Source: Minisyncoccia bacterium (lineage in GTDB: Bacteria > Patescibacteriota > Minisyncoccia > Phycocordibacterales > UBA2100). From it: a DNA stretch of 64,000 bases. Of the stretch, positions 372 through 27,780 are shown piece after piece. The stretch's first letter is position 1; each line of letters starts with the position of its first letter. Under the pieces are notes generated by a model, which saw only the letters and a list, made by a program, of their open reading frames with translations, was not told the origin of the DNA and made no database searches. The DNA lies in NCBI GenBank assembly GCA_049297775.1, contig JBAQUX010000023.1:18-64017 (forward strand), given 5' to 3'. Both the position numbers and the translations under genes were made by a program.

Positions 372-1583
372 CTACAGTCCTGCAGAAATATTGTAGATTG
401 GTACAAGTACAGATGCGAGCAATACACCCACACCGAGCGCGAGTGTCACAATCATCAACGGCTCAATCATAGAAACAAGTGTATCAACTGCAGTACTCAC
501 TTCACGTCTATAAAATTTTGCCATCGTGTCCAAAATTTTCCCCATATCTCCTGTCTCTTCTCCGACACGCACCATCGCTACAACAATGCTAGGAAATATT
601 TTTTGTTTCTCCATGGCGTCGGATGTATGGATACCAGTCTGTACTTCACGGGCAACGGCATTCAATGCTTTTTCGTAACTTGGGTCCCCCACTACTGCTG
701 CACTCATTTCAAGTGCGCGAATCATTTGGATACCACTCGTGAGCATGGTCGCCATGTTGTCAGCAATGCGAGAAAGAAAAAGTTTTTGATAGAGCGTTCC
801 AACATACGGTATTGAGAGTTTAATACGTGAGAAAATTTCTTTTCCGTTTGGACTTGAGAGGACTTTCCCGGCCATGATGACCGCAACAAAAAGTCCGATA
901 CCGACAAGCCAGAAGTAATGCACCAGAAAGTTACTGATAGCAAGTACGGCACGCGTATACACTGGGAGCTTTTGTCCTGTCTCCACAAGAATATCTGCCA
1001 TACGTGGAATAACCAGCGTCATCATCAAAATCATAACGATGACGAACACACCAATGACGAATGCTGGGTAGATTAATGCATTTTTTGCTTTCGCAGTAAT
1101 TTCGTAGTTTCTGTCGAGATAATCAGCGAGGAAGTTAAACGTGTCGTCAATCTTACCTGTCTCTTCACCGGTTCGAACCATTGAGACGTAGAAGTTGTCG
1201 AATACTTTTGGGTGCTTCGCCATTGCGCGCGACATGGGCATACCTGCCTGAATATCATTTGCGATAGTAGTGAGTCTATCCTGGAGAGCAGGATTGGTTG
1301 TTTCTGTTGCGAGAAGTCTAAATGCACGAAGTGCAGAAACCTGAGCTTCGAACAATGTTGCGACCTGACGCGAAAGCATCACCACATCTTTTGTTGAAAT
1401 TCTCTCAAAGAATGTGAGACTCTTGCCCATTATTGAGTTACCACCCTTAACAGGGTCAATGGTTTGGACTATAAGACCTCTGCGCTGTAATGAACTTACG
1501 GCGACATCAACAGTAACCGCATCAATAGTACCGGTTGCTGGCTTACCATCTGAATCAACTGCTTTATATGAAAAAAGTGCCAT
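372..1583 (-). CDS. pilC: Type IV pilus assembly platform protein PilC (GspF/T2SS-F family)
   Basis: 403 aa, two T2SSF-type repeats with polytopic membrane segments. Position immediately after pilT/pilB in a pil operon. Confidence 0.9.
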   Translation of the reverse strand: MALFSYKAVDSDGKPATGTIDAVTVDVAVSSLQRRGLIVQTIDPVKGGNSIMGKSLTFFERISTKDVVMLSRQVATLFEAQVSALRAFRLLATETTNPALQDRLTTIANDIQAGMPMSRAMAKHPKVFDNFYVSMVRTGEETGKIDDTFNFLADYLDRNYEITAKAKNALIYPAFVIGVFVIVMILMMTLVIPRMADILVETGQKLPVYTRAVLAISNFLVHYFWLVGIGLFVAVIMAGKVLSSPNGKEIFSRIKLSIPYVGTLYQKLFLSRIADNMATMLTSGIQMIRALEMSAAVVGDPSYEKALNAVAREVQTGIHTSDAMEKQKIFPSIVVAMVRVGEETGDMGKILDTMAKFYRREVSTAVDTLVSMIEPLMIVTLALGVGVLLASVLVPIYNISAGL

Positions 1584-1588
1584 GATAT

Positions 1589-2656
1589 TTACAATAGACG
1601 CTCGAGCATTTGCGGATTAAGAGAGTGTTCGTATGCACTCTCAATATTTATCTCTCCTTTTGCGACAAGCTCCGCAAGTGTTCTGTTCATATCAATCATT
1701 CCTTCTTCAGAGCCTGTTTCGATAATCGTGTTAATTTCATGCGTGCGTTTTTCTCGAATCAAGTTCGCAACAGCTTTATTGTTTATAAGAAGTTCATAGG
1801 CTGGAACCATACCTCCTGAAATTCTTGGAATAAGTCTCTGTGAAAATACACCAGCGAGCGACGCAGAAAGCTGGATGCGTATCTGATCTTGTTGTTCTGC
1901 TGGAAATGTATCAATAATACGGTCAATAGTTTGCGCTGCGTTGTTTGTGTGCAAAGTAGAAAAAACTAAGTGCCCAGTTTCAGCAGCAGTAACTGCTGCA
2001 CCCATAGTATCTGCCCCGCGCATTTCTCCAACGAGTAAGACGTCAATATCCTGACGAAACGCACTGCGTAATGCATTAGGAAAATCTTTTGTATCAACCG
2101 AAACCTCGCGCTGGTCAACGAGTGATTGCTTTGGATCATGCAGGTATTCGATTGGGTCTTCAATCGTGACGATGTGCGCTGCGCGCTCAACGTTAATGAG
2201 GTCTATCATTGCCGCAAGTGTTGTTGTTTTTCCCTGCCCCACTGGACCAACCACAAGAAAGAATCCTTGTTTCTTTCTCGCAAACGTGGTGAGTATTGGT
2301 GGTAAACTCAATTCTTCCAGTGAGCGAATTACTTTTGGAATGCGACGGAGCACAACCGCTGCTGAATTTTTTTGGAAGAATGCGTTACATCGAAAACGGT
2401 CTGTGCCTGGAACTTGATACGAAAAGTCGAGCTCTTGTTCTTGTTTAAAACGAGCCACCTGCTCTGGAGACGCGAGTACTTGAATAAACCCAAGAACATC
2501 TGCAGGGGTAAGTATCGGCTCATTCATCATCGGCACTAAAGAACCGTCCACACGAATTGTCGGTCGTGAATCCGCGGAAAGATGCAAGTCGGAACCGCCC
2601 TCATGCGTTACTGTATTTAAGTATTTGGGTAGATCTTTTTCGTACTGTAATGCCAT
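1589..2656 (-). CDS. pilT: Twitching-motility/retraction ATPase PilT
   Basis: Walker A GPVGQGKTTT. The DLHL motif sits near the N-terminus when the start is taken at MALQYEKDL (2656); the ORF-track start at 2695 is probably an upstream in-frame ATG. PilT/PilU family length and motifs (IEDPIEY, LVGEMRG). Confidence 0.88.
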   Translation of the reverse strand: MALQYEKDLPKYLNTVTHEGGSDLHLSADSRPTIRVDGSLVPMMNEPILTPADVLGFIQVLASPEQVARFKQEQELDFSYQVPGTDRFRCNAFFQKNSAAVVLRRIPKVIRSLEELSLPPILTTFARKKQGFFLVVGPVGQGKTTTLAAMIDLINVERAAHIVTIEDPIEYLHDPKQSLVDQREVSVDTKDFPNALRSAFRQDIDVLLVGEMRGADTMGAAVTAAETGHLVFSTLHTNNAAQTIDRIIDTFPAEQQDQIRIQLSASLAGVFSQRLIPRISGGMVPAYELLINNKAVANLIREKRTHEINTIIETGSEEGMIDMNRTLAELVAKGEINIESAYEHSLNPQMLERLL

Positions 2657-2724
2657 ATGGTAACTATACGTGATGCGCGAGTGAGTGACAATCAACTGCT
2701 CTGCATAAGTCTCAGTGATAATTT

Positions 2725-3114
2725 CTATTTTTGCCAGCCAAGCACCACTTGCTCAATTTTACTCACCATCTCATCTGGGAGTGACTGCGCCTTAATGAAC
2801 TGTCCCGCGACTTTTAAGTCTTTCATTCGAGCAAAATCTTCTGGCTCACTTTGGTTAGAGAGCACAATTATTGGAAGCCCTTCCGCAAGGTGTTCATCTC
2901 GAAGCGTTTTGATGAACTCAAATCCATTCATCTGAGGCATAATTATATCAGCGACTATTATATCTACTCTGAGTCCACCTCGTAATTTTTCTAACGCAAC
3001 CTTAGCGCTCTGACATGGAACCACCACATGCCCTCTCTCAAGGATTTTTGTTGCATAAATATCAACAATGAATTCATCGTCATCGAGAAACAGTATAGTA
3101 AATTTTTTATCCAT
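2725..3114 (-). CDS. Single-domain response regulator (REC/CheY-like receiver only)
   Basis: 129 aa. Acidic pocket LFLDDDE, phospho-acceptor Asp in IIVADIIMP, conserved T/S and K positions of receiver domains. No output domain. Embedded between pilB and pilT. Confidence 0.8.
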   Translation of the reverse strand: MDKKFTILFLDDDEFIVDIYATKILERGHVVVPCQSAKVALEKLRGGLRVDIIVADIIMPQMNGFEFIKTLRDEHLAEGLPIIVLSNQSEPEDFARMKDLKVAGQFIKAQSLPDEMVSKIEQVVLGWQK

Positions 3115-3115
3115 A

Positions 3116-4888
3116 TTATTTATTTTTTTCCTCTTGTAGCGCTACTTCTTCAGCCAGGAGCACTCCACCCAATGTGCTAATCTCCGAAAACGGAATCACT
3201 TTATTGAACGCTTTCAGCATAGCATCTTCACGCATGGTGAGCATACCCTTACTGCGAATAATCTTAAGAATTTCGTCATCACCTTTTCTGTCCAAAATTG
3301 CACGCTCAACTTCGGCACTCATTCCAAATGCCTCGATAACTGCACTTCGTCCTCGCATTCCTGACGCTGACGCAGACGTTGGCTGTGGGTCGTACACAAC
3401 ATTTGGAATAGTGAAACGATATTCTGGCGGTAAATCCTTAATTGAATCTTCCATAAATAAACGCATGCTTGGTGTAACTGGTATTTCTGTTCCAGTTCCT
3501 GGGTGCAATTTACGCACCAATCGCTGTGCCACCGCAAGAATTAATGTTGGCGCAATAAGATAGGGATCAACACCCATATCTATAAGACGAGGAATAACGC
3601 CGACAGAATCGTTTGTGTGAATAGTTGAGAGTACCAAGTGACCAGTAAGCGCGGCTTGAATTGCGAGCTTTGCAGTTTCTGCGTCACGGATTTCTCCCAC
3701 CATGATAATGTCTGGGTCTTGGCGAAGCGCAGTACGCAAACCAGAGGCAAATGTATACCCAATTTCTGGACGCATTTGGGATTGATTAACTCCTTCCATG
3801 TGATACTCAACCGGGTCTTCAAGCGACATCACGTTTTCTGATTCACGATCAAGCTCATTTAACATCGAATACAATGTGGTTGACTTACCGGAACCCGTTG
3901 GACCAGAAACGAGAATAAGGCCATACGGTCTTTCGAGTGCTGTGCGAATGAGATTAAGATTTTTTTGTGAGAGACCGAGGTCAGCGAGCGGTACCACGCC
4001 TTTATTTTTATCCAAGATACGCATCACCACCTTCTCACCTTCTGGTAGTGGAAATGTAGAGACACGAAAGTCAATTTTTCTTCCGCTCACCGTTGCTGAA
4101 AATCTACCATCTTGCGGTTTTCGTCGTTCGTCAAGCCTCAGTGCTGCCAAAACTTTAATACGCGCCACGATTGCCTGTTGTGTATTTTTGGGAAGCATCA
4201 GACTTGTATGCAACGTACCGTCAACACGAAAACGCACACGCACACCCGCCTCGCTTGGCTCTATATGTACGTCAGATGCAGAACCATCTACTGCGTAGCG
4301 CAACACTGTTGCGACGATTTTTATTATCGGTGCATCCTCTTGAAAGTTTTTTGCATCCTTTGGTCCTTGTGCTTGCTTATCAAGTTCGGCCTGAACGTCA
4401 ACTTGGTCACTTGACGCCTCGGTCGCCAATTCATCGAGCGCGTTCCCGACATCTCCAGTAAGCCCTCGATACATGGCGAGCACTTTTTCAAAATCTGCCT
4501 TAGTTATATGAAAAACTTTGTACGGCAAGCCAGCCTTACGGGTAATAAAGTTAAGTGCGTCTACTGCCTCAATGTCATCAGGACTCACAAAACCCACTTC
4601 GAGCACCCCATCTTCAATTCCGAGCGCAACAAACTTATAGTGATTTGCTGATTCTTCTGGAATATTTTGCAAAATTTGCAACGCAATTTTACTATCACCT
4701 ATAGTACGAGTTGGGATACGAACACTGCCACCCTGCTCTGCAGCTAATATTTCTTCATCAGAAAAACCGCGATTACGGAGAGCTGTATCGATATCTATTT
4801 TTTTGGACTCAACCTCTGACCGTACTTCTTCGGCAACTTTGGGTGATATAAGTCCTTGAGCAATAAGTATTGAGAGCGGGTCTTCCAT
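3116..4888 (-). CDS. pilB: Type IV pilus assembly (extension) ATPase PilB/GspE family
   Basis: 590 aa with N-terminal GSPII_E_N-like region. Walker A GPTGSGKSTT, Asp box, Walker B MVGEIRD, His box of secretion ATPases. Confidence 0.9.
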   Translation of the reverse strand: MEDPLSILIAQGLISPKVAEEVRSEVESKKIDIDTALRNRGFSDEEILAAEQGGSVRIPTRTIGDSKIALQILQNIPEESANHYKFVALGIEDGVLEVGFVSPDDIEAVDALNFITRKAGLPYKVFHITKADFEKVLAMYRGLTGDVGNALDELATEASSDQVDVQAELDKQAQGPKDAKNFQEDAPIIKIVATVLRYAVDGSASDVHIEPSEAGVRVRFRVDGTLHTSLMLPKNTQQAIVARIKVLAALRLDERRKPQDGRFSATVSGRKIDFRVSTFPLPEGEKVVMRILDKNKGVVPLADLGLSQKNLNLIRTALERPYGLILVSGPTGSGKSTTLYSMLNELDRESENVMSLEDPVEYHMEGVNQSQMRPEIGYTFASGLRTALRQDPDIIMVGEIRDAETAKLAIQAALTGHLVLSTIHTNDSVGVIPRLIDMGVDPYLIAPTLILAVAQRLVRKLHPGTGTEIPVTPSMRLFMEDSIKDLPPEYRFTIPNVVYDPQPTSASASGMRGRSAVIEAFGMSAEVERAILDRKGDDEILKIIRSKGMLTMREDAMLKAFNKVIPFSEISTLGGVLLAEEVALQEEKNK

Positions 4889-4891
4889 GGC

Positions 4892-5290
4892 TTACTCGGA
4901 GATTTCTTCTTGTGCTCCAGTGCGTGCGCCACGACCTTGAAATTGTACTGGTATTTCCTCAGAAATTATATCGTCATCGTTACCTACAGGGGCAAAAGGA
5001 TTTTTTCGTCCCACCGGCTCAGGAATAATTTGTTGCCCTGTATCTTTAAGCACATTAAACGCTGGATTTTGAAAAATAGTGTCATCTAGCTTAATTGTAC
5101 GCATATCCAATAGTAACTTGAGCACCTCAGAGTCATCATTATTTTCAGTAACTACCTGGCTATTAAGTACGCCATCTGCAGACGATGTACCGAGAGTGGC
5201 ATTTTCTTCTCCGGAATTCATCGAAAGACCATACCAACCTCCGATGATGACAACGATTACTATGACTGCAATTATTATTTTATTGTTCAT
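4892..5290 (-). CDS. Small single-pass membrane protein, PilP-like pilus-assembly accessory (hypothetical)
   Basis: 132 aa, N-terminal TM helix (IIIAVIVIVVIIGGWYGL), acidic C-terminus. Position between pilO and pilB. Assignment by context only. Confidence 0.4.
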   Translation of the reverse strand: MNNKIIIAVIVIVVIIGGWYGLSMNSGEENATLGTSSADGVLNSQVVTENNDDSEVLKLLLDMRTIKLDDTIFQNPAFNVLKDTGQQIIPEPVGRKNPFAPVGNDDDIISEEIPVQFQGRGARTGAQEEISE

Positions 5291-5301
5291 GGTTCAATAT
5301 A

Positions 5302-5958
5302 TTATGGAAGCCAGTATGTTCGTATCGCAACAGTAAATCTATATATTGGGTCTGTGGTATCGCGTGAACCACTTGTTGAAATACTTTGACCCTGAAGTCC
5401 GACGAGCTCTTGCGGAATTGCACCTCCTGCAGGAGCCTGTTTTGCAGTTTCAGACATAGATAATGATACAAGGTCTACAACTCGCAAACTCTGCTCGAGG
5501 TCACGCATAAAACTCACAAAATCGTCATATGTTGATGCCACGCCAAATTCAAGCACCAAGGATTTATATCGCTGGTTTTGTAATGCTGACGCTGCTTCAA
5601 TAGAGCCTGCGACTTGCGTTTTCCCCTTCTCGTCGCCATCTCTACGCACCTGCACGTTTCCAATGCGCAATCCATGCTTGGTCGCAAGCGCATCAAAATC
5701 GAGCACTAAGTGCACGTTATCTACGAAGTCTGGGAGAAATTTTTCAAGACGTTCAGTGTTTGTACCAGTAAGCGTATTATATTTTTGTGAGAGTGCATTA
5801 CCAAGCGCCTGCACTTCTTTTGCCTTAGCTAGACCTTCAGCATATTTGTCCACCTCTTTCTTTTTTGAAAGTGTAGCGTTATATGTAGGCGTTACATATC
5901 CAAAGATAAGACCGCCAGAGACAAGTATCATTATTATTGCAAGTATAAGTTTAGTCAT
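5302..5958 (-). CDS. pilO: Pilus assembly protein PilO-like
   Basis: 218 aa. Short cytoplasmic N-terminus, one TM helix, coiled-coil then periplasmic/extracellular domain. Gene order pilM-N-O. Confidence 0.6.
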   Translation of the reverse strand: MTKLILAIIMILVSGGLIFGYVTPTYNATLSKKKEVDKYAEGLAKAKEVQALGNALSQKYNTLTGTNTERLEKFLPDFVDNVHLVLDFDALATKHGLRIGNVQVRRDGDEKGKTQVAGSIEAASALQNQRYKSLVLEFGVASTYDDFVSFMRDLEQSLRVVDLVSLSMSETAKQAPAGGAIPQELVGLQGQSISTSGSRDTTDPIYRFTVAIRTYWLP

Positions 5959-5971
5959 AATGGTACATTAA

Positions 5972-6787
5972 TTATTCGCTGGTGTTTCCAAATAATCCAT
6001 CTGATGCCGGCTTTCCTGTTTGCGGTTTAGGTAACGGACGAGGTGTTGGCGTGGTTTGTTGTTGCACACCGCCTGCAGGCCTTCGGTTCAAATTTCCTGT
6101 AACGTCCTGGGGAGCTTCTTCTTCAGTGAAAGAACTTTGTGTTGCACTTGTATCATCTAGGGATTCTTCACTTCCTCCATTTTGAGCACTAAGTGCCGCG
6201 GCGACAAGTGATTCAAATTTTACTGTTTCTGGATTTAAATTTAAATTAACTGCGAACGTAACTCCTTGCGCACCGATATCCAAATCTGAGAAAATTGGCT
6301 CTTTAATAGCGTTATGCCTACTAAAAATTGACGCCTGGAGTGCAATACCGTTTACACTCGCTGCCTTCCCTTTCATTTCAACATGCAGGTCGCCTTCTGG
6401 TTTTACCGTATAGTTCACGTTGGTAAATTGTACTGACTTAAGTGTTGTCTGTTCGAGGACCTTAAAAAATATTGAAGGTGCAAGGTGAGCACCAAGTACG
6501 CCGTTTGCAGAACGGATACGCTCGTCGAGTCTCATTATTTTTGTGACGAGTGAAGGTGCAAACGCTCCGCGCGCCTTTTCGAGTTGCGCCTTTTTATCAG
6601 CCAAGTCCTTTGTAACAAACTGTTGATAGAGAAAAACTCCCGCTGAAAGCGTCCCCGCAATCACGAGGGCGATTATTCCCAAAAGCATGACCACGTCAAA
6701 TCCATCACTTCCTCCGTAGTTGCTTTGAGGAGACTCCATTGTAGGGAGTTTTGTGGGGATGAATGATGATTGAATTGGTGATTCCAT
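5972..6787 (-). CDS. pilN: Pilus assembly protein PilN-like with Pro/Thr/Gln-rich C-terminal tail
   Basis: 271 aa, single TM (VVMLLGIIALVIAGTLSAGVFLY) followed by coiled coil. Low-complexity C-terminus QQQTTPTPRPLPKPQTGKP. Immediately downstream of pilM. Confidence 0.6.
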   Translation of the reverse strand: MESPIQSSFIPTKLPTMESPQSNYGGSDGFDVVMLLGIIALVIAGTLSAGVFLYQQFVTKDLADKKAQLEKARGAFAPSLVTKIMRLDERIRSANGVLGAHLAPSIFFKVLEQTTLKSVQFTNVNYTVKPEGDLHVEMKGKAASVNGIALQASIFSRHNAIKEPIFSDLDIGAQGVTFAVNLNLNPETVKFESLVAAALSAQNGGSEESLDDTSATQSSFTEEEAPQDVTGNLNRRPAGGVQQQTTPTPRPLPKPQTGKPASDGLFGNTSE

Positions 6788-6810
6788 ACGTTTTAATTAT
6801 TCCACATAAT

Positions 6811-7971
6811 TTATCCCTGCTGGATAATGCGCATCGCTGCACCTACCGCAACTGAAAATTCTGGGCCTACTTCTTTAAGTACATCGTGCAAAAATGCTGG
6901 ACCTTCTACGTGATCAAATGGCTGAGCCAATTGGACCTGGGCACCAAGTCTTTCTTGCGCATACGGAATTAAGTCTTTGATAGTCGCACCTCCTCCTGTC
7001 AAAATAACATGAGGTACATTTTTCTGATACTTTTTCCCGTAGTTCAATAATACTTTATGTACCTCTGGGAATATACGTCCGAGTGTTGATAACAATGCGG
7101 TGCGCACTGGAGGCGTCGGCATTGCTGTTCCGGTTCCTGCTTCTTTAGTCATCGGCACGTCAATGCTCAGCCCCTGCTCCTTCTTCATTCGCTCAGCTTT
7201 TTCAAAATCCCAACTCATCGATCTACTAATCGAAAGGGTCATATCTTGGCCACCTTGATTGATGGTATGCGACATGCGTACGATACCTCGCTCAATAATA
7301 GATACTTTTGTTGTTGAGGCACCGATGTCTACAACCATGATTGGTGCAACTCCGTGCCCCAAAGAAGATCGCGCAGTACTGAATATTTCAAGTTCATAAA
7401 ACTGTGGCTGAATATTAAGCCCTTGCATAATTGACTGAAAATTACTGAGTGTGTCGTTATGTATCGCAACGAGTAAAACCTCAATGACATCCTTCTTTCG
7501 CTCTCCCGTATCAGGCTGTGTCGCATTTTCATATTCATCTTTTGGAATAGCAAACCAATCAAGGGAAATTTCATTCATAGGAACTGGAATGTACTTACGA
7601 GCCTCAAGAGGTACGGCACGTTTGAGCGCATCATCGCTCATAGGTGGCAATTCAATAACCGAAGTCAGGCTTGCTGAGAACGGAATAGCGACTCCGGCTA
7701 TAGTAGCCGTCATGTTTGATTCTTTCATGAGGTCCTGAATTGCTTCTCCTATTTTTTGTGCAGGAAGTCGTGCCACTTGCCCAGTCTGCAACTCAGCAAA
7801 TGGACCAAGGGCAATTGCGCCATATGTCTCAAGTATTGCACGACCGTGTTCTCTGCGTAATTGAACAATTTTTACTGAAGATGATCCAATATCTATACCA
7901 AGCACACTCCCAGTACCACCGATGGAAGGCAGTCCACTGAGTCTTTTTGTAATTGCATCAAATAAACCCAT
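6811..7971 (-). CDS. pilM: Type IV pilus assembly ATPase-fold protein PilM (actin-like)
   Basis: N-terminal GIDIGSSSVKIVQL actin/FtsA-like phosphate-1 motif and second half with DIGASTTKVSI. Start taken at MGLFDAITKRL (7971); the ORF track extends to 8025 through non-conserved residues. Confidence 0.85.
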   Translation of the reverse strand: MGLFDAITKRLSGLPSIGGTGSVLGIDIGSSSVKIVQLRREHGRAILETYGAIALGPFAELQTGQVARLPAQKIGEAIQDLMKESNMTATIAGVAIPFSASLTSVIELPPMSDDALKRAVPLEARKYIPVPMNEISLDWFAIPKDEYENATQPDTGERKKDVIEVLLVAIHNDTLSNFQSIMQGLNIQPQFYELEIFSTARSSLGHGVAPIMVVDIGASTTKVSIIERGIVRMSHTINQGGQDMTLSISRSMSWDFEKAERMKKEQGLSIDVPMTKEAGTGTAMPTPPVRTALLSTLGRIFPEVHKVLLNYGKKYQKNVPHVILTGGGATIKDLIPYAQERLGAQVQLAQPFDHVEGPAFLHDVLKEVGPEFSVAVGAAMRIIQQG

Positions 7972-8019
7972 ATAGTAGATGCATTGTACCATACTCACCT
8001 GTAGAATGTTGAGTACACT

Positions 8020-8664
8020 ATGCACTTTTTACGCAAATATATAGCGAGTTTTATCGACTGTGTACTGCCCCCAAGAGAGGCTGAGCTTCAACTGCGTAAA
8101 CTCACACCAAATAACTTTCCATTCATAAAAAGTGAATTCAAAACTGAGAGTGGCATGAGCGTGCTTACACTCTCTGTATTCACCGATGAGCGCGTTCGGC
8201 TCGCTATTCATGAATTAAAATTTCATAAAAATTCTCACGCTGCATCGCTGTACAGCGAAAATGTACATGACGCGCTACAAGAAGTATGCTCAAGAAGTAA
8301 CTTAGAGTATTTAATTGTCCCCATACCTCTTCATAAAAAGAGGTACCGCGCTCGCGGATACAATCAGGTAGTGACTATTATCATGTCTGCGCATTCCAAG
8401 GGTACGGAGCATCCGCTCAACACAATTTTCTCAGCAGACGCACTTACTCGCATTCGCGAAACAAAACCCCAAACAGAACTATCACGCGAGTCTCGTTTAA
8501 AAAATCTACATCACGCCTTTTCCGCTTCGTCTGAAGTGCGTGATAGAAATGTCATTGTTGTTGATGACGTGTACACGACCGGTGCTACATGTGCAGAGGC
8601 ACAGCGAGCACTCATGTACGCAGGAGCACGCAGTGTCACCTGTATTGTTTTGGCAAGGGCTTGA
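8020..8664 (+). CDS. comFC: ComF family protein (ComFC-like phosphoribosyltransferase-fold competence protein)
   Basis: C-terminal PRTase motif VIVVDDVYTTGAT typical of ComF/GntX. Divergent from the pil operon. The real start may be an internal Met (e.g. MSVLTLS at 8155) to leave room for divergent promoters. Confidence 0.75.
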   Translation: MHFLRKYIASFIDCVLPPREAELQLRKLTPNNFPFIKSEFKTESGMSVLTLSVFTDERVRLAIHELKFHKNSHAASLYSENVHDALQEVCSRSNLEYLIVPIPLHKKRYRARGYNQVVTIIMSAHSKGTEHPLNTIFSADALTRIRETKPQTELSRESRLKNLHHAFSASSEVRDRNVIVVDDVYTTGATCAEAQRALMYAGARSVTCIVLARA

Positions 8665-8753: not shown

Positions 8754-9242
8754 TTGGTACCCCGATTGAAAATCGCAGTACACCATATACTTATGAACCC
8801 AGTGCATCCATATCGTCGCGTAGCCCTCATACTTCTTGGAGGATTTTTCCTTTGGGGTGCAGTATCTTATTACTGGTATGCCTGTGGCATCAAAAACCTC
8901 TGCAGTACACAGCAGGTTACGATTACTCAAGCCACTCATGAGGTTGCAAAAATTCCAGATGATATACATGTAACCCAGGTACTCGTCTACGAAAAGAACG
9001 AGTGTGCACCGTACCTTACTGGCTCAGTAGGTGTAGCAACTCGAAACAACCCTGCCGACGTGTCCCTCGTTGAACAATTTTTATCTGTATACCAGAACGA
9101 AAATATTGTTATTGATGGTGTGTATACCAGTGATGATATTGCGGGAATTCGCAGGTTTCAAAATGCGCAAGGCATTTCAGCGACTGGTAATGTATTCAAT
9201 AAAACACGTGAGGCAATAAATGCATTAGTGTGTGCCGAATAA
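8754..9242 (+). CDS. Membrane-anchored protein with C-terminal PG_binding_1 (peptidoglycan-binding) domain; cassette copy 1, gene A
   Basis: N-terminal TM helix followed by SYYWYACGIKNLC motif, shared with the 21586 paralog. C-terminal LVEQFLSV...DGVYTSDDIAGIRRFQNAQGISATGNV matches the PG_binding_1 consensus. Probable start at MNPVHPY (8793). Confidence 0.7.
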   Translation: MVPRLKIAVHHILMNPVHPYRRVALILLGGFFLWGAVSYYWYACGIKNLCSTQQVTITQATHEVAKIPDDIHVTQVLVYEKNECAPYLTGSVGVATRNNPADVSLVEQFLSVYQNENIVIDGVYTSDDIAGIRRFQNAQGISATGNVFNKTREAINALVCAE

Positions 9243-9270
9243 TTATAATTATTAAAAAATAAATTTATTT

Positions 9271-9723
9271 ATGTTTACTCAACCAGTAACCCAAGCTTAC
9301 GACCTCACCGACGCCACGTGGGAAATAATTGTAATGCTTACTGTCTCTTTTTTGCTCGGTTGGTTTTTTCGATATCTTTGGTCTCGTACAGATGCTGAAC
9401 AACAGATAGTTTACGTTCCCCAGACACCCGCTGTTCCAGACAGACCTGAACGTTATAGAAAATATTCAGAAAATGATTTACAAATCGTAGAAGGTATTGG
9501 TCCAAAAATTGAAGAACTTTTAAAGACTAATGGTGTATATTCATGGGAAGATTTAGCACGTTCGTCAATTGAGAGTCTCCGTGCCATTCTCCAAAAAGGA
9601 GGTGAGCGCTTCCAAATGCATGACCCGAGTAGCTGGGCTGACCAAGCAGCACTTGCTGTTGAAGGAAAATGGGCGGATTTAGAAGAATATCAAACCCTAC
9701 TTCCCGGCGGACGGATGCGATAA
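9271..9723 (+). CDS. Membrane-anchored helix-hairpin-helix (GIGPK) domain protein, ComEA-like candidate; cassette copy 1, gene B
   Basis: TM helix (IIVMLTVSFLLGWFF) then DLQIVEGIGPKIEELLKTNGVYSWEDLA HhH motif and conserved FQMHD...WA.QA.LA..GKW tail. Paralog of 22254-22718. Confidence 0.65.
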   Translation: MFTQPVTQAYDLTDATWEIIVMLTVSFLLGWFFRYLWSRTDAEQQIVYVPQTPAVPDRPERYRKYSENDLQIVEGIGPKIEELLKTNGVYSWEDLARSSIESLRAILQKGGERFQMHDPSSWADQAALAVEGKWADLEEYQTLLPGGRMR

Positions 9724-9727
9724 CAAT

Positions 9728-9753
9728 AAGGCGCCCTATGGCGCCTTTTGTAA
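9728..9753 (+). terminator. Rho-independent terminator (AAGGCGCC-CTAT-GGCGCCTT + TTTG)
   Basis: 8-bp GC-rich stem, 4-nt loop, U-rich tail directly after the stop of the 9271-9723 gene. Confidence 0.6.
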
Positions 9754-9771: not shown

Positions 9772-10566
9772 TTACTGTACGGTAATTGTTTTTTGTGACA
9801 CAACTGGCGCCTGAGATACATACCCGCGAATAGTTCTAAAACTCACGGTGTAACTGCCTCGTGATTGATATATGTGTGTAAGTTGTCTATTTATCTGATC
9901 TGACTCACAACCACTATTACCGCCCTCCCGAGATACTATTGGTGAACCATCTCCCCAATCAAGCGAATACGATGTGCAGGTAGTCCCATTTACAGCAAAA
10001 AACGCAGACACCGCATGTGGTGCAGGACCACTTGCAGGTTCGACAGTGAACGAAAAGTTATCTACGGGCGCCACTCCAGTCTTTACCGGAGTACGTGTGG
10101 TTGTTCCTGTACTTGTAGTCTTCGCTTGGGTTACCGAAGTTCCTGACGCACATGCAGCCTTCATAACATCGGCTGTACGTTTATCAATAGAACCTGTAAC
10201 AGATAGGTGTGACAAAAGTTGCCAACGCGAAACTGCATCTTTAGTAATACCTCCATAATATCCAGTACCATACTCATCTGACAAAACGCCTTGTTCAATT
10301 AGAAATCCTTGAAGTGCGATCACATCTTGCCCTGATGCGCCCACTTGTAACGAACGATTCACTGGCAAGCACTCCCCGCTTCCAGTGGTTCCGGTGTTCG
10401 TTCCATCAGGATCAATACCAATTGCTCGGAGTTGCACTTTTATAGCATCGACGATTTTGATAAGCCGAGCAATTTCAGAAAGTATTTCATCTCGTGTCAT
10501 CGCTGAGGTCATAGCGGGCACAACAACAAGCACTGTAATAATAAGGGCTGAAAGTGATTTATACAT
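9772..10566 (-). CDS. Secreted protein: signal peptide + PG_binding_1 domain + C-terminal PKD-like domain
   Basis: N-terminal signal/TM. IALQGFLIEQGVL...GTGYYGGITKDAVSRWQ is a PG_binding_1 motif. C-terminal LDWGDGS...HIY...GSYTV matches the PKD motif (WDFGDG...HxY...GxYxV). Confidence 0.7.
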   Translation of the reverse strand: MYKSLSALIITVLVVVPAMTSAMTRDEILSEIARLIKIVDAIKVQLRAIGIDPDGTNTGTTGSGECLPVNRSLQVGASGQDVIALQGFLIEQGVLSDEYGTGYYGGITKDAVSRWQLLSHLSVTGSIDKRTADVMKAACASGTSVTQAKTTSTGTTTRTPVKTGVAPVDNFSFTVEPASGPAPHAVSAFFAVNGTTCTSYSLDWGDGSPIVSREGGNSGCESDQINRQLTHIYQSRGSYTVSFRTIRGYVSQAPVVSQKTITVQ

Positions 10567-10614: not shown

Positions 10615-11634
10615 TTACCGCACAGTAATCTGCGCCTGATTAATAACTGGTAACTTTGAAAGTACATTTTGTCCCTGTTTCAGCGTAACGGTATAGATGC
10701 CAGGCCTTGTGTACACATGCGGAATATAGAGCGTAATTGCTTTTGCCGTACACGTAGCAGGCTTCCCAGCATCAAATGCTTCAGGTGCTGTGCCATCTCC
10801 CCAACTAATTTCGTATGAAGTACACGTAGTACCATTCACCGCAAACGAAAGGCCAATCGTAAGTGGTGCACTTCCCGACGCAGGCTTTATAAAGAATGAG
10901 TACCGTTCTGATTTTCGCTCTGACCCCGCATTCGCGCCACCACATTTTGCAATCCTGTCTCGCGTCGCACCATTTGTGGTACCACTTTGCGTCAGACCCT
11001 TTGTTCGTTGCCATGACAGCAAAGCTCGCTCAGTTGATGGACCGAACGCTCCTGTAATAAGTGAGGTGCTTAACGTGCCTTCACGAGCAAGGAAACATTG
11101 AAGCGTTGCAACATCTCCGAGTACCCCTTGCGCATCAACTGACCCGCGGGCAATAACATTTGCGATAACTGGGCAATCAGGGACATTTGTGCACGAAACT
11201 AATTTACGTGGAATGATTGGCTCACAGCTTTGATTTTTATTTATATAGGCACGTGTCTTTTCCTCAACAATGCCATATCCAGTTTTACACGATAACCCGG
11301 GCTTTACGATGTTAAACTTTTTTTGTAGTCGCCGCACCGCAAGCTCAGTTTCTTCACTATATTCACCCGTAACTAAACCACTAGGATATAGTGAGGGAAA
11401 ATCACGCAAGTATTTTTGTAACCGAGTTACCTCACCATTTGTAGTACTGTCACTCACACCAAAATAGAGAAGCTCCTTGAAAGCGGGACATTTAGTTTTG
11501 GCATCTTCTGTTGTTGCTGTCTCCTCACCTTTCATTTCAGTTGATTTTCCAGTAACAGGAGCGACTCGTGTTTGCGCAGACACCGTCTGACCGAGAAGCA
11601 CGCATATACATACCGCAAAAAGTATTCGAATCAT
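10615..11634 (-). CDS. Secreted protein: two PG_binding_1 repeats + C-terminal PKD-like domain (paralog of 9772-10566)
   Basis: Signal peptide MIRILFAVCICVLLGQTVSA. LQKYLRDFPSLYPSGLVTGEYSEETELAVRRLQ and VATLQCFLAREGTL...GAFGPSTERALLSWQ motifs. C-terminal ISWGDGTAPE...HVYTRPGIYTVTL PKD signature. Confidence 0.7.
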   Translation of the reverse strand: MIRILFAVCICVLLGQTVSAQTRVAPVTGKSTEMKGEETATTEDAKTKCPAFKELLYFGVSDSTTNGEVTRLQKYLRDFPSLYPSGLVTGEYSEETELAVRRLQKKFNIVKPGLSCKTGYGIVEEKTRAYINKNQSCEPIIPRKLVSCTNVPDCPVIANVIARGSVDAQGVLGDVATLQCFLAREGTLSTSLITGAFGPSTERALLSWQRTKGLTQSGTTNGATRDRIAKCGGANAGSERKSERYSFFIKPASGSAPLTIGLSFAVNGTTCTSYEISWGDGTAPEAFDAGKPATCTAKAITLYIPHVYTRPGIYTVTLKQGQNVLSKLPVINQAQITVR

Positions 11635-11691
11635 GAAGTAAGTATCGCATGCATTAGTACGCAATCAATTACCACACTGTTTATAATAGGA

Positions 11692-20104: not shown

Positions 20105-20388
20105 GCTTATTTCGTTACTTGTTAATAGCTAAGTATGACGTGAAAAAATGAATGTGCAATACCTTTCATTCATGAACACTGTGCACAGCACATATCCACA
20201 GGATAATGCTCATGTACGCACCAGTACGAGCACTTGCTGTTAAGCCATTTTCTATTGGACAATAAGAGACATGTTAATTATGTCCTTTATATAAGCCACG
20301 GAATTCGTGCCAGGTCTTGCATTTTAGATACATTTTTTGTAGGGTATTGACATACACTCACTTTAACAGTGTACCTATAACTACATAT

Positions 20389-21585: not shown

Positions 21586-22230
21586 TTGATACATAACAAT
21601 ATATACATGCAATTATTATCACATCTCTCACAGAAGCAGTGGTCTCTACTCGGTATCCTCGGTCTTTGGCTCGTGTTCGGCTCATATTGGTACACCTGTA
21701 ACATTAAGTACCTCTGCAAAAATACACCCATCGCCCCTGTGGTATCAGTTAACACATCAGTACCTAACATGCCAGTTGTACTTGGTGATACTACTTCTAC
21801 AGAAGTTAGCGGAACACCAGCGGAAAGTTTAGTACGTCAAACGCCAGAAGCTACATGGAACGCATTGATTGCTAACCCAGTACTTGTGTACTTTGGTGTC
21901 AATAATGACAATGTTATTACTGAGAACGTAGATTCTGTCTTAAAGAATATTGTAAGCTATCTCTCTCAAAACGAGGGTCAACGTATCGTTGTGACAGGAC
22001 ACACAAATGCGCACCCAAATGACGCATACGCAGTTGCACTTGGTCTCGAACGCGCACATAAAGTAAAGGAGCTTCTTGTCTCCTACGGTGCCCCTGCTTC
22101 AGCAATTCTTGTCGCTTCACTTGGCGATACGCAACTCGCTGCGCCTGCAACAACACTGGCAAATCAAGCACTTAACCGACGTGCGGTTATTTCTGTTGCT
22201 CGTCCTGACGCATACGATATCAAATACTAA
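21586..22230 (+). CDS. Membrane-anchored protein with C-terminal OmpA-like peptidoglycan-binding domain; cassette copy 2, gene A
   Basis: N-terminal TM + SYWYTCNIKYLC motif, homologous to SYYWYACGIKNLC in the 8754 gene. C-terminal OmpA_C-like motif VVTGHTNAHPNDAYAVALGLERAHKVKELLVSYGAPASAILVASLGDT...NRRAVISV. Probable start MQLLSHL (21607). Confidence 0.7.
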   Translation: MIHNNIYMQLLSHLSQKQWSLLGILGLWLVFGSYWYTCNIKYLCKNTPIAPVVSVNTSVPNMPVVLGDTTSTEVSGTPAESLVRQTPEATWNALIANPVLVYFGVNNDNVITENVDSVLKNIVSYLSQNEGQRIVVTGHTNAHPNDAYAVALGLERAHKVKELLVSYGAPASAILVASLGDTQLAAPATTLANQALNRRAVISVARPDAYDIKY

Positions 22231-22253
22231 ATTATAGATTAAACACACCTACC

Positions 22254-22718
22254 ATGTTCCAAGTTCTAAACCCAATGACAAAAAGCACAGCAATTCTTGA
22301 AATACTCATACTTATGGGTATCTCAGCACTACTCGGATACCTCCTTGCACGAAGCTGTAAGGACAACTGTTGCTGTGGCACCTCATGTGACGCAACAGCA
22401 AAGGCGAAGCCTGCTACCCCATCAGTACCGAAGGCAGTGATGTCAGCTCCGGTAGTATCTGCTTCAGATGACTTAAAAAAGATTGAGGGCATCGGACCAG
22501 CGATTGAAAAACTTCTCAACGCAGAAGGTATAAAAACATTTGCACAGCTCGCAGATGCAAAAGTTGAAAAAATTAAAAATATACTTGACGCCGCAGGACC
22601 GCAATTCCAAATGCACGACGGAGAGACTTGGGCTGAACAAGCTCGCCTCGCACGCGACGGAAAGTGGGTTGAGTTTAAGGCTCTTACTGACAAACTCCAG
22701 AACGGCAAGCACGTCTAA
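22254..22718 (+). CDS. Membrane-anchored HhH (GIGPA) domain protein with Cys-rich juxtamembrane segment, ComEA-like candidate; cassette copy 2, gene B
   Basis: TM (AILEILILMGISALLGYLLA), CKDNCCCGTSCD cluster, then DDLKKIEGIGPAIEKLLNAEGIKTFAQLA...QFQMHDGETWAEQARLARDGKW. Same domain as 9271-9723. Confidence 0.65.
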   Translation: MFQVLNPMTKSTAILEILILMGISALLGYLLARSCKDNCCCGTSCDATAKAKPATPSVPKAVMSAPVVSASDDLKKIEGIGPAIEKLLNAEGIKTFAQLADAKVEKIKNILDAAGPQFQMHDGETWAEQARLARDGKWVEFKALTDKLQNGKHV

Positions 22719-27687: not shown

Positions 27688-27780
27688 ATATATGTATTGT
27701 ATACCCTGCATAGAAAAAAGTGGAGTTTCGTGTGCACAGTAGTCCGTTTCTCTCGCAAGGCTCTCAAGCCTAAGCAAATA

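What the first reader, a model, noticed from the sequence alone, without database searches (positions are those of the whole stretch)
8754..9723. Duplicated two-gene cassette (copy 1; copy 2 at 21586-22718): PG-binding membrane protein + membrane-anchored HhH protein, a candidate cell-wall-tethered DNA receptor
Seen in sequence: two loci share the same gene pair. Gene A has an N-terminal TM helix, a rare Cys-containing motif (SYYWYACGIKNLC / SYWYTCNIKYLC) and a C-terminal peptidoglycan-binding module. The two A copies use different PG-binding folds, PG_binding_1 in copy 1 and OmpA-like in copy 2. Gene B has an N-terminal TM helix and a GIGPK/GIGPA helix-hairpin-helix with a conserved FQMHD...W..QA.LA..GKW tail; copy 2 additionally carries a CKDNCCCGTSCD cluster. 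Established knowledge: ComEA DNA receptors are membrane-anchored HhH proteins, and OmpA/PG_binding_1 domains tether proteins to peptidoglycan. Inference: with a complete T4P operon and comFC 1 kb upstream, these pairs may form a wall-anchored extracellular DNA-binding unit for DNA uptake, which would be an undescribed module. Module swapping of the PG-binding domain between copies suggests functional rather than accidental linkage.
Basis: partly seen in the sequence, partly recalled or inferred. Interest (0 to 1): 0.75.

Follow-up and report, generated by a model that had tools for sequence, protein, structure and literature searches.

The report
Wall-anchored membrane pair with cytoplasmic HhH
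Both loci encode a real, uncharacterised two-gene membrane module found in several bacterial phyla: one protein grips the cell wall from outside, but its partner's helix-hairpin-helix domain points into the cytoplasm, so it is not an external DNA receptor for DNA uptake.

Summary
Both loci encode gene A (one TM helix, a W..S.YWY.C.IK..C motif and a peptidoglycan-binding domain: PG_binding_1 in copy 1, OmpA-like in copy 2). Each A gene is followed 23-28 bp later by gene B (one TM helix, a linker and a C-terminal HhH domain). The pairing is nearly obligate and spans phyla. In a metagenome scan seeded only with the A motif, 60 of 60 evaluable full-length A genes had B directly downstream, and one more was an A-B fusion. 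In species genomes, 42 of 47 single-pass B genes had A directly upstream.

The proposed function, an extracellular ComEA-like DNA receptor, is not supported:
- B follows the positive-inside rule for N-out/C-in (K+R 24 vs 138 in the two flanks).
- Inherited A-B fusions place the PG-binding domain between the two TM helices, so the HhH domain lies on the opposite, cytoplasmic side.
- The same domain ends cytoplasmic proteins (bL21, bL27, bS1, NuoE).
- There is no ComEA or HHH_3 match, the domain is mostly acidic, and no conserved link to pilus or competence genes exists.

Best reading: a wall-fixed inner-membrane anchor presenting a cytoplasmic HhH domain. Its ligand (DNA or protein) is unknown. 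I found no description of the module.

The parts
8793..9242 (+). Gene A1: a single-pass membrane protein with a PG_binding_1 domain. The mechanical ORF starts at 8754; the NCBI model starts at 8793 and gives 149 aa.
   Evidence: ORF. Exact database match P0135. Pfam PG_binding_1 at 26.8 bits, above the cut-off of 23.
8820..8873 (+). A1 transmembrane helix (VALILLGGFFLWGAVSYY), preceded by the basic YRR, so the N-terminus is predicted inside.
   Evidence: The A N-terminal profile scores E 2e-14 on this ORF.
8865..8903 (+). A1 juxtamembrane Cys motif SYYWYACGIKNLC, predicted on the outer face of the membrane.
   Evidence: W, C, C are invariant and S, W, Y, I, K are at least 90% conserved in 101 representatives.
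9054..9215 (+). A1 PG_binding_1 domain, flanked by the two further conserved cysteines (C84 and C160 of the 162-aa ORF).
   Evidence: Pfam residues 101-154. The four cysteines are invariant in the 15-member PG_binding_1-type alignment.
9271..9723 (+). Gene B1: a short acidic N-tail, one TM helix, a linker and a C-terminal HhH domain.
   Evidence: It lies 28 bp after the A1 stop codon.
9319..9369 (+). B1 transmembrane helix (WEIIVMLTVSFLLGWFF), with Glu at its outer end and RYLWSR directly after it. Predicted N-out/C-in.
9460..9717 (+). B1 HhH domain of the COG3743 type, containing GIGPK and FQMHD..W..QA. Net charge -6, pI 4.6.
   Evidence: Custom HMM residues 64-149. Pfam HHH_5. Charge.
21607..22230 (+). 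Gene A2: a single-pass membrane protein with an OmpA-like domain. The mechanical ORF starts at 21586; the NCBI model gives 207 aa.
   Evidence: P0121.
21640..21717 (+). A2 transmembrane helix (21640-21690) and the Cys motif SYWYTCNIKYLC (21682-21717).
21907..22179 (+). A2 OmpA-like peptidoglycan-binding domain. It reads GHTN where most OmpA-like domains read GHTD.
   Evidence: Pfam OmpA residues 108-198 at 54.2 bits. Sequences.
22254..22718 (+). Gene B2: an N-tail, one TM helix, a Cys cluster, a linker and a C-terminal HhH domain.
   Evidence: P0001. It lies 23 bp after the A2 stop codon.
22293..22349 (+). B2 transmembrane helix (ILEILILMGISALLGYLLA).
   Evidence: The AF2 model has a helix at residues 7-37.
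22353..22391 (+). B2 Cys-rich juxtamembrane cluster SCKDNCCCGTSCD, on the predicted cytoplasmic side. Its role is unexplained.
22458..22712 (+). B2 HhH domain of the COG3743 type: five helices, pLDDT above 90.

Best explanation
A and B together form a self-contained two-protein module of the cytoplasmic membrane that spans the envelope.

Protein A:
- It inserts N-in/C-out.
- On the outer face it carries a conserved Cys loop (YWY-C-x-I-K-x-x-C) and a peptidoglycan-binding domain.
- That domain can be OmpA-like, PG_binding_1 or, rarely, PG_binding_3.

Protein B:
- It inserts the other way round, N-out/C-in.
- About 15 residues lie outside, and an acidic residue sits at the outer end of its TM helix.
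- Inside the cell it has a flexible linker of 28-114 residues and a COG3743-type (HhH)2-like domain.

How they work together:
- The two TM and juxtamembrane segments pair. I infer that the conserved Lys of the A motif lies near the conserved Glu/Asp of B.
- A therefore fixes B to the cell wall, and B holds out a tethered HhH domain in the cytoplasm.
- The module would then be a wall-immobilised anchor for whatever that domain binds. DNA or another nucleic acid is the first candidate, and a protein partner the second.

Status of each step:
- Shown here: the gene pairing, the domain make-up, the fusion architectures and the charge asymmetry.
- Inferred: the physical A-B contact, binding to peptidoglycan, the ligand of the HhH domain and the physiological role.
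For: Pairing:
- In GTDB species genomes, 42 of 47 single-pass B genes have an A gene directly upstream, in the same-strand array of B genes. One has it downstream. Among soluble fusions of the same domain, 27 have none; 4 lie in arrays headed by a TM-anchored B, and 5 are at contig edges.
- In a metagenome scan seeded only with the A motif, 54/54 OmpA-type and 6/6 PG_binding_1-type A genes with room downstream are followed by B. One further case is an A-B fusion.
- The taxa include Bacteroidota (Cytophagales, Saprospiraceae, Flavobacteriales), Patescibacteria, Acidobacteriota, Acidimicrobiia and Methylotenera.
- No third gene is conserved alongside the pair.

Topology of B:
- In 49 non-redundant proteins, K+R totals 24 in the N-flank and 138 in the C-flank. 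The C side is richer in 46 of them and the N side in none.
- The fusions L095 and P0164 are homologous, so the fusion is inherited. Both read TM1 + motif + PG_binding_1 + B tail/TM2 + HhH.
- The two-TM proteins P0058, P0060, P0072 and P0094 begin with an A-like TM helix (E 3e-4 to 9e-4) followed by the B TM helix and HhH domain.
- The same domain (profile E 3e-14) is the C-terminus of D. shibae RC-LH1 protein-O. The ends of its two-TM hairpin were traced on the cytoplasmic side (PMC12079452).
- The domain is also fused to cytoplasmic proteins: bL21, bL27, bL17, bS16, bS6, bS1, NuoE and phasin PhaH.

Outward-facing A:
- It has a short basic N-terminus followed by a hydrophobic helix.
- Three different PG-binding folds occur on one N-terminal module.
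- Four cysteines are invariant in the PG_binding_1 type.

Contact between A and B:
- The Lys of the A motif is at least 90% conserved.
- 77 of 89 B modules have Asp or Glu at the outer end of the TM helix.
- A and B lineages diverged together.

Domain fold:
- The AF2 model has pLDDT above 90 over residues 70-150.
Against: - No experiment exists. Topology rests on the positive-inside rule, fusion logic and one homologous solved structure in which the domain itself was not resolved.
- The HhH domain is mostly acidic (median net charge -2, median pI 5.4; B1 is -6). This argues against simple electrostatic DNA binding.
- Its best domain-level structural matches are the protein-binding NusA AR1 and AR2 repeats.
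- Patescibacterial OmpA-type A proteins read GHTN where the usual motif is GHTD, so peptidoglycan binding is not assured.
- Each fusion lineage is small. The A-like match of the two-TM proteins is only E ~1e-3 and involves hydrophobic sequence.
- The Cys-rich cluster on the cytoplasmic side of B2 has no place in the model.
Confidence: 0.6

Rival explanations
1. B is a ComEA-like receptor whose HhH domain faces outward, held at the wall by A. It captures extracellular DNA for uptake driven by the type IV pilus.
For: - B is a membrane-anchored protein with a canonical GIGP hairpin.
- Copy 1 lies next to a pilus operon and a comFC-like gene, and that arrangement recurs in L007.
- The window contains no other ComEA-like gene.
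Against: - The charge asymmetry indicates N-out/C-in in 46 of 49 B proteins.
- The A-B fusions put the HhH domain on the opposite side of the membrane from the PG-binding domain.
- The domain family is fused to ribosomal proteins, NuoE and bS1, all cytoplasmic.
- There is no HHH_3 or ComEA hit in Pfam or NCBIfam.
- The domain is acidic.
- No pilus or comF gene lies within 5 kb of the pair in any other GTDB or look-up locus searched (L001-L090) except the close relative L007.
Confidence: 0.04
2. The architecture and topology are as in the best explanation, but the cytoplasmic HhH domain is a protein-binding module like the NusA acidic repeats. The pair would then dock a protein complex at a wall-fixed site, for example RNA polymerase, ribosomes or other proteins carrying this domain, rather than DNA.
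For: - The domain is acidic.
- The same domain is appended to many large assemblies: ribosomal proteins, ActC/ActD, NuoE, protein-O, phasin PhaH, a PhaC2 and CBM48. This would fit a shared docking or self-association function.
Against: - The invariant G-I-G-P hairpin is the DNA-backbone-binding form. From my own recollection of the E. coli NusA sequence, not checked here, the AR repeats have lost the second glycine; the B-family hairpin is shown.
- Rad51/RadA N-terminal domains and DNA glycosylases are also among the matches.
- No partner protein is encoded nearby.
Confidence: 0.25
3. The pair is a signalling or energised unit of the MotB/TolR/ExbD kind. A senses or grips the wall, and the acidic TM residue of B takes part in proton-coupled or conformational signalling to the cytoplasm.
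For: - A has the MotB-like layout of an N-terminal TM helix followed by an OmpA-like domain. It gives weak hits to MotB and ZorB models.
- B has a conserved acidic residue at the end of its TM helix.
Against: - No MotA/TolQ/ExbB-type multi-pass partner is present or conserved nearby.
- The acidic residue is on B, at the outer end of the helix rather than in the membrane core. The TM helix of A has no acidic residue.
- All MotB-family scores are far below their cut-offs.
Confidence: 0.06

Closest known systems
ComEA (competence DNA receptor)
   Same: It is a small protein with an N-terminal membrane anchor and C-terminal HhH motifs. Here one copy lies next to pilus and comF genes.
   Different: - ComEA has a tandem HHH_3 DNA-binding domain, plus an oligomerisation domain in Gram-positives (abstract of PMC9747964, listed), and works outside the membrane.
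- B gives no HHH_3 or ComEA match.
- B's domain is acidic and predicted to be cytoplasmic.
- B's conserved partner is a PG-binding protein, not competence genes.
Protein-O of the Dinoroseobacter shibae RC-LH1 complex (PDB 8YY9), and the C-terminal extensions of alphaproteobacterial NuoE and of bL21
   Same: - The C-terminal domain is homologous (profile E 3e-14 to 8yy9_O and 2e-11 to 9wqv_a; NCBIfam local hits to NuoE and bL21).
- Protein-O shares the layout of membrane anchor, long flexible linker and C-terminal domain.
- Its anchor ends on the cytoplasmic side.
   Different: - Protein-O has a two-TM hairpin that sits inside a photosynthetic complex, and it has no PG-binding partner.
- The authors call the function of these domains obscure (PMC12079452).
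OmpA-like inner-membrane wall anchors (MotB, long-form TssL, Pal-type domains)
   Same: A2 has an N-terminal TM helix and a C-terminal OmpA-like domain. The A-B fusions resemble long-form TssL in combining a cytoplasmic domain, membrane passage and a PG-binding domain.
   Different: - A lacks the conserved acidic residue in the TM helix, and there is no MotA-type partner.
- The N-terminal W..S.YWY.C.IK..C module is specific to this family.
- The PG-binding fold is interchangeable.
NusA acidic repeats AR1 and AR2
   Different: Sequence similarity is insignificant (E about 0.06). B keeps a canonical G-I-G-P hairpin.
Nucleoid-to-membrane tethers such as Noc or RacA-DivIVA (a functional analogy from general knowledge, not tested here)
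   Same: If B binds DNA, the pair would link the chromosome to the envelope.
   Different: There is no sequence or structural relationship, and none of those systems is coupled to a peptidoglycan-binding partner.

Membership tests
ComEA | A tandem HhH DNA-binding domain that matches HHH_3 or the ComEA models | tested here: not met
   No HHH_3 hit at E <= 1 for B1 or B2. No ComEA model at E <= 0.1 in NCBIfam. HHH_3 is not among the 25 most frequently matched families in 60 homologues.
ComEA | The HhH domain lies outside the cytoplasmic membrane | tested here: not met
   Positive-inside rule: K+R 24 vs 138, with the C side richer in 46 of 49. The fusions L095 and P0164 place the PG-binding domain between the two TM helices. 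The anchor of homologous protein-O ends on the cytoplasmic side. These are predictions, not experiments.
ComEA | A conserved genomic or functional link to the DNA-uptake machinery | tested here: not met
   PilB/T/C/M and ComFC homologues are found next to the pair only in L007, a close relative, among the roughly 85 loci L001-L090.
ComEA | Binds double-stranded DNA | not testable with these tools
   The domain has median pI 5.4, and B1 has net charge -6, which makes non-specific binding doubtful. An EMSA is needed.
COG3743-type C-terminal HhH domain (HHH_5/DUF4332-related; 'predicted flap endonuclease-1-like 5' DNA nuclease' in JGI) | Sequence match over the roughly 85-residue domain DDLKKIEGIGP...H..TW..QA.LA..G.W | tested here: met
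   276 homologues at E <= 1e-3, many carrying this JGI name. HHH_5 matches 60/60 and DUF4332 46/60 homologues. For the window proteins themselves, B2 HHH_5 is 28.8 (cut-off 27), B1 HHH_5 is 25.3 (below cut-off), and B2 DUF4332 is 19.9 (below 23.2).
COG3743-type C-terminal HhH domain | A compact helical (HhH)2-like fold at the C-terminus, after a flexible linker | tested here: met
COG3743-type C-terminal HhH domain | Nuclease activity, as implied by the annotation name | tested here: not met
   Only the HhH part is present. No nuclease domain appears in Pfam or NCBIfam. The name is an annotation label, not a tested function.
OmpA-like domain (PF00691) | Profile match above the gathering score | tested here: met
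   A2 scores 54.2 bits against a cut-off of 27.2.
OmpA-like domain (PF00691) | Peptidoglycan-contact residues: the Asp of GHTD and the Arg of LS..RA (from general knowledge of OmpA/Pal structures) | tested here: inconclusive
   A2 and its patescibacterial homologues read GHTN; the Arg is kept in GLERA. The Bacteroidota A protein keeps GHTD.
PG_binding_1 (PF01471) | Profile match above the gathering score | tested here: met
   A1 scores 26.8 bits against a cut-off of 23. Fifteen representatives with the same N-terminal module also match.
MotB/TolR/ExbD-type stator subunit | A conserved acidic residue within the TM helix, and a multi-pass MotA/TolQ/ExbB partner | tested here: not met
   The TM helices of A contain no Asp or Glu. 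The partner is single-pass B, and no other gene is conserved nearby. MotB models score far below their cut-offs.
Anti-phage defence systems (PADLOC) | A match to a defence-system protein model | tested here: not met
   The only hits are weak, generic OmpA-domain matches to ZorB for A2. A1 and B1 give nothing; B2 gives only two insignificant hits (E 0.026 and 0.052, PDC-M18B).

The most novel reading that the evidence does not exclude
The pair is a bridge across the envelope, a bacterial counterpart in principle of a LINC-type link.
- A, fixed to peptidoglycan, immobilises B.
- B's cytoplasmic HhH domain grips the chromosome, or the same unknown hub that this domain binds when it is appended to ribosomal proteins, NuoE, alternative complex III, RC-LH1 protein-O, phasins and glycogen-binding modules.
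- The cell wall would then provide fixed docking points that organise cytoplasmic machinery in space.
Probability: 0.2. Interest if true: 0.85.

Novelty: new variant of a known kind. Interest (0 to 1): 0.6.

Why it matters
- If A and B do form a complex, this is a compact and very widespread way of coupling the cell wall mechanically to something in the cytoplasm. It occurs from small-genome Patescibacteria to free-living Bacteroidota. I know of no described bacterial system that pairs a PG-binding anchor with a cytoplasmic HhH domain.
- It gives a handle on an 'obscure' domain. The domain decorates ribosomal proteins, respiratory and photosynthetic complexes and storage-granule proteins in many bacteria. 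The membrane-anchored, wall-fixed form is the simplest context in which to find its ligand.
- The near-obligate adjacency (60/60 and 42/47), the three natural fusion arrangements and the interchangeable PG-binding folds make the hypothesis directly testable in cultivable Cytophagales such as Runella, Dyadobacter and Emticicia.
- It also corrects a tempting misannotation. These proteins should not be counted as ComEA-like competence receptors in Patescibacteria.

Tried and rejected
- Word-indexed homologue search with A1 found only one relative. This wrongly suggested that A1 is nearly unique. The profile search of the N-terminal module then found 19 PG_binding_1-type clusters.
- Literature searches for COG3743, DUF4332, 'flap endonuclease-1-like' with OmpA, HhH with OmpA and nucleoid, and NuoE extensions found no functional study. 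The only relevant items were the RC-LH1 protein-O paper and a passing mention for a Halomonas PhaC2.
- A conserved link to pilus or competence genes, or to RecG, was rejected. PilM and ComFC recur only in L007. Metallophos and RecG recur only in the close relatives L001, L003 and L015, and the RecG in L069 lies 3.5 kb away.
- A third conserved partner gene was rejected. The next commonest neighbour family occurs in 17 loci, against 135 loci for B and 107 for A.
- Anti-phage defence was rejected.
- A MotAB-type stator was rejected because no multi-pass partner exists.
- Lipoprotein or cleaved-signal-peptide readings of A were rejected. There is no lipobox or AxA site in most members, and only L019 has a MAGC-like sequence.
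- Recent duplication of the cassette was rejected.
- The promoter and terminator scans were no better than shuffled sequence and were not used.
Full report
**1. What is in the window**

Both loci carry two closely spaced genes on the + strand.

| Gene | Coordinates | Size | Gap to partner |
|---|---|---|---|
| A1 | 8754-9242 (NCBI start 8793) | 149 aa | 28 bp to B1 |
| B1 | 9271-9723 | 150 aa | |
| A2 | 21586-22230 (NCBI start 21607) | 207 aa | 23 bp to B2 |
| B2 | 22254-22718 | 154 aa | |

Pfam results:
- A1 matches PG_binding_1 at 26.8 bits (cut-off 23).
- A2 matches OmpA at 54.2 bits (cut-off 27.2).
- B2 matches HHH_5 at 28.8 bits (cut-off 27).
- B1 matches HHH_5 at 25.3 bits, just below the cut-off.
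- DUF4332 matches are weak.

Similarity between the copies:
- A1 and A2 share only the TM helix and Cys motif (13 of 24 residues identical).
- B1 and B2 align end to end at 33% identity (E 4e-29).

Surroundings:
- A type IV pilus operon (PilC, PilT, a response regulator, PilB, PilO, PilM) lies on the - strand at 372-8025.
- A comFC-like phosphoribosyltransferase gene lies at 8020-8664.
- Exact protein matches come from a MAG named Minisyncoccia bacterium, a member of the Patescibacteria.

**2. The pair is conserved and nearly obligate**

Look-ups of close homologues showed the same pair in different surroundings.
- L001 and L003 keep the copy-2 neighbours (Metallophos_2, and RecG in L001).
- L006 places the pair between glycolytic genes and a ribosomal operon.
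- L007 repeats the copy-1 neighbourhood.

The pair also occurs in Bacteroidota.
- In Pseudarcicella, an OmpA protein begins MSKTRTPWLIALLLWMAASTYWHTCKIKELC.
- It is followed by two TM-anchored HhH genes.

A scan of 185,579 species genomes with a B alignment returned 80 loci. I called ORFs and scored them with my own HMMs for the HhH domain, the B N-terminus, the OmpA domain and the A N-terminus.

| Class of HhH gene | A gene directly upstream | Downstream | None | At contig edge |
|---|---|---|---|---|
| Single-pass B (47) | 42 | 1 | 4 | - |
| Soluble fusions | 4 | 0 | 27 | 5 |

'Directly upstream' allows other B genes in the same-strand array to lie in between. The four soluble cases all lie in arrays headed by a TM-anchored B.

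The reverse test was seeded only with the A motif WY[TVA]Cx[IV]K[GNK][FL]C and returned 77 metagenome loci.
- 54 of 54 OmpA-type A genes with room downstream are followed by B.
- 6 of 6 PG_binding_1-type A genes with room downstream are followed by B.
- One more locus is an A-B fusion.
- The three exceptions are short motif-only ORFs.

No third gene family is conserved. After B (135 loci) and A (107 loci), the next family occurs in 17 loci.

The taxa are Cytophagales, Saprospiraceae, Flavobacteriales, Patescibacteria, Acidobacteriota, Acidimicrobiia and Methylotenera.

**3. The A N-terminal module and the swapped wall-binding domain**

- A 33-residue profile of the A N-terminus found 101 cluster representatives among 1.84 billion.
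- Of these, 57 carry OmpA, 15 PG_binding_1, 1 PG_binding_3 and 7 also TSP3 repeats. Most of the rest are fragments.
- W, C and C are invariant. S, W, Y, I and K are at least 90% conserved.
- The PG_binding_1 type has two further invariant cysteines flanking the domain. This fits extracytoplasmic disulfide bonds, which is my inference.

The two window copies are not a recent duplication.
- DNA similarity is confined to stretches of 34-39 bp.
- B1's six best relatives all pair with PG_binding_1-type A genes.
- B2's five best relatives pair with OmpA-type A genes.

**4. Topology: the HhH domain is cytoplasmic**

Five independent lines agree.

- **(i) Positive-inside rule.** In 49 non-redundant single-pass B proteins, the 15 residues before the TM helix hold 24 K+R and the 15 after it hold 138. 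The C side is richer in 46 proteins and the N side in none.
- **(ii) Natural fusions.** L095 (323 aa) and P0164 are homologous, so the fusion is inherited rather than a sequencing error. Both read A-TM, Cys motif, PG_binding_1, B N-tail and TM, linker, HhH. A wall-binding domain between two TM helices must be outside, so the HhH domain after the second helix must be inside.
- **(iii) Two-TM proteins.** P0058, P0060, P0072 and P0094 start with an A-like helix ending in TYWY (E 3e-4 to 9e-4). These are the best non-A hits. The B helix and HhH domain follow.
- **(iv) A solved homologue.** The profile of the B family matches protein-O of the D. shibae RC-LH1 complex (8yy9_O, E 3e-14) and a complex I 41-kDa subunit (9wqv_a, E 2e-11). 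In the cryo-EM structure, the two-TM hairpin of protein-O ends on the cytoplasmic side. The flexible C-terminal domain follows, and its function the authors call obscure (PMC12079452).
- **(v) Fusion partners.** The same domain is the C-terminal extension of bL21, bL27, bL17, bS16, bS6, a six-S1-domain bS1, NuoE, uS2, phasin PhaH, glycogen-binding CBM48, and the membrane subunits ActC and ActD. It also occurs on a Halomonas PhaC2 (PMC8686332).

A has a short basic N-terminus and then a hydrophobic helix, so it looks like a signal anchor with its C-terminus outside.

**5. What the HhH domain looks like**

- The AF2 model of B2 has a TM helix at 7-37, a disordered stretch at 38-70 and a five-helix domain with pLDDT above 90.
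- Foldseek finds nothing with E below 0.3.
- The hairpin E-G-I-G-P is invariant or nearly so, as in DNA-binding HhH motifs.
- However, the domain is acidic. Across 106 non-redundant domains the median net charge is -2 and the median pI 5.4. B1 is -6 and B2 is -1.
- The linker is about neutral.

The ligand is therefore open. Nucleic acid is plausible from the hairpin. A protein is plausible from the charge and the resemblance to the NusA repeats.

**6. Comparison with ComEA and other families**

- No HHH_3 or ComEA model matches B1, B2 or their homologues.
- Location, charge and genomic association also fail the ComEA test.
- Among the GTDB and look-up loci L001-L090, pilus and comF genes lie near the pair only in L007, a close relative. 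Metallophos and RecG recur only in the close relatives L001, L003 and L015.
- The window has no other ComEA-like protein.
- A MotB-type stator is excluded. The TM helices of A contain no acidic residue, and no multi-pass partner exists.
- PADLOC finds nothing relevant.
- NCBIfam has no family of its own for A or B.

**7. Model**

- A (N-in/C-out) binds the wall.
- B (N-out/C-in) pairs with A through the TM and outer juxtamembrane segments.
- This contact is supported by the three kinds of natural fusion and by the co-divergence of A and B lineages.
- It is also supported by a conserved Lys in the A motif facing a conserved Asp or Glu at the outer end of the B helix, present in 77 of 89 modules.
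- The result is a wall-fixed membrane anchor that presents a tethered HhH domain in the cytoplasm.
- I give this architecture-level model a confidence of 0.6. Within it, DNA versus protein as the ligand is unresolved.

**8. Caveats**

- All topology evidence is computational or by homology.
- The A-like match of the two-TM proteins is weak.
- Patescibacterial OmpA-type A proteins read GHTN instead of GHTD.
- The Cys-rich stretch after the B2 helix has up to 8 Cys in relatives and also occurs in Lutibacter and Methylotenera members. It is unexplained.

**9. Novelty and interest**

- All the domains are known.
- I found no description of the conserved pairing, of the A N-terminal module, or of the opposed topologies.
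- I rate it a new variant of a known kind, namely wall-anchored inner-membrane proteins.
- Interest is 0.6. It would be higher if the trans-envelope tether reading is confirmed.

Noticed in passing
window 9772-10566 (-), 10615-11664 (-), 20317-21414 (+), 25486-27777 (-); also L001 10231-12417, L006 4930-5475, L007 3506-4312: Genes for secreted proteins with PG_binding_1 domains, often with PKD domains as well, flank both cassettes in the window. They also flank the homologous pairs in three other patescibacterial contigs. This may be a wall-related neighbourhood, or these genes may simply be abundant in this lineage.
   Followed up: partly
window 22353-22391; L001 6564-7085, L003 6540-7079, L016 4968-5468, L065 4971-5465: A Cys-rich stretch lies directly after the B TM helix, on the predicted cytoplasmic side. 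It has 5 Cys in B2 and up to 8 in relatives (for example CSCCSDCCCEC). It recurs in Patescibacteria, Lutibacter and Methylotenera. Metal binding is a guess; the feature is unexplained.
   Followed up: partly
L020 3453-5312, L053 5328-6215, L044 2895-5294, and many proteins: The same roughly 85-residue HhH domain is a promiscuous C-terminal appendage. It occurs on ribosomal proteins (bL21, bL27, bL17, bS16, bS6, bS1), alternative complex III subunits ActC and ActD, NuoE, phasin PhaH and glycogen-binding CBM48, especially in Saprospiraceae and Cytophagales. What these proteins share is unknown.
   Followed up: partly
L110 4713-4838, L117 4641-4790, L131 3579-3731, L141 4674-4799, L150 2346-2471, L152 2544-2672, L154 4410-4535, L158 4074-4205: Mini-ORFs of 41-50 aa that match only the B N-terminal TM module lie between A and a longer B gene in eight metagenome loci. 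They could be real micro-proteins or frameshifted gene starts.
   Followed up: no
L008 5473-5934 and 6001-6480; likewise L011, L012, L013, L014, L017, L022, L066, L087, L090: Cytophagales carry one A gene followed by two B paralogues. The first has Gln/His (WWQH) where other B proteins have the conserved Glu at the outer end of the TM helix.
   Followed up: no
L010 5607-5879 and 6001-6573: The two-TM protein P0060 (A-like helix plus B) has no OmpA neighbour. It sits directly after rpmA (bL27), the ribosomal protein that carries this HhH domain as a fusion in Bacteroidota.
   Followed up: no
L081 4618-4968; L090 3296-3652 and 3695-4225: In two Cytophagales loci, A is split into an ORF with the N-terminal motif and, in L090, a separate OmpA ORF. 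This may be an assembly frameshift or a genuine split.
   Followed up: no
window 21991-22014 (A2 VTGHTNAH): Patescibacterial OmpA-type A proteins read GHTN where Bacteroidota A proteins, and OmpA-like domains generally, read GHTD. This may reflect a different peptidoglycan chemistry or weaker binding.
   Followed up: no
window 2725-3114 (-): A stand-alone response-regulator receiver gene sits inside the type IV pilus operon, between the PilT-like and PilB-like ATPase genes.
   Followed up: no
window 9728-9747: A GC-rich 8-bp stem-loop (AAGGCGCC-ATAG-GGCGCCTT) lies between the convergent ends of B1 and the PG_binding_1/PKD gene. It may be a bidirectional terminator, but terminator-like hits in this region were only modestly above the shuffled expectation (3 found, against a shuffle mean of 1.2, sd 1.1).
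   Followed up: no
six of the 60 B-family homologues in alignment A2 (not identified individually): Six members give Pfam LapA_dom hits (best E 4e-5) over the N-terminal TM region. This hints that the B anchor is related to the LapA/YciS-type membrane segment.
   Followed up: no
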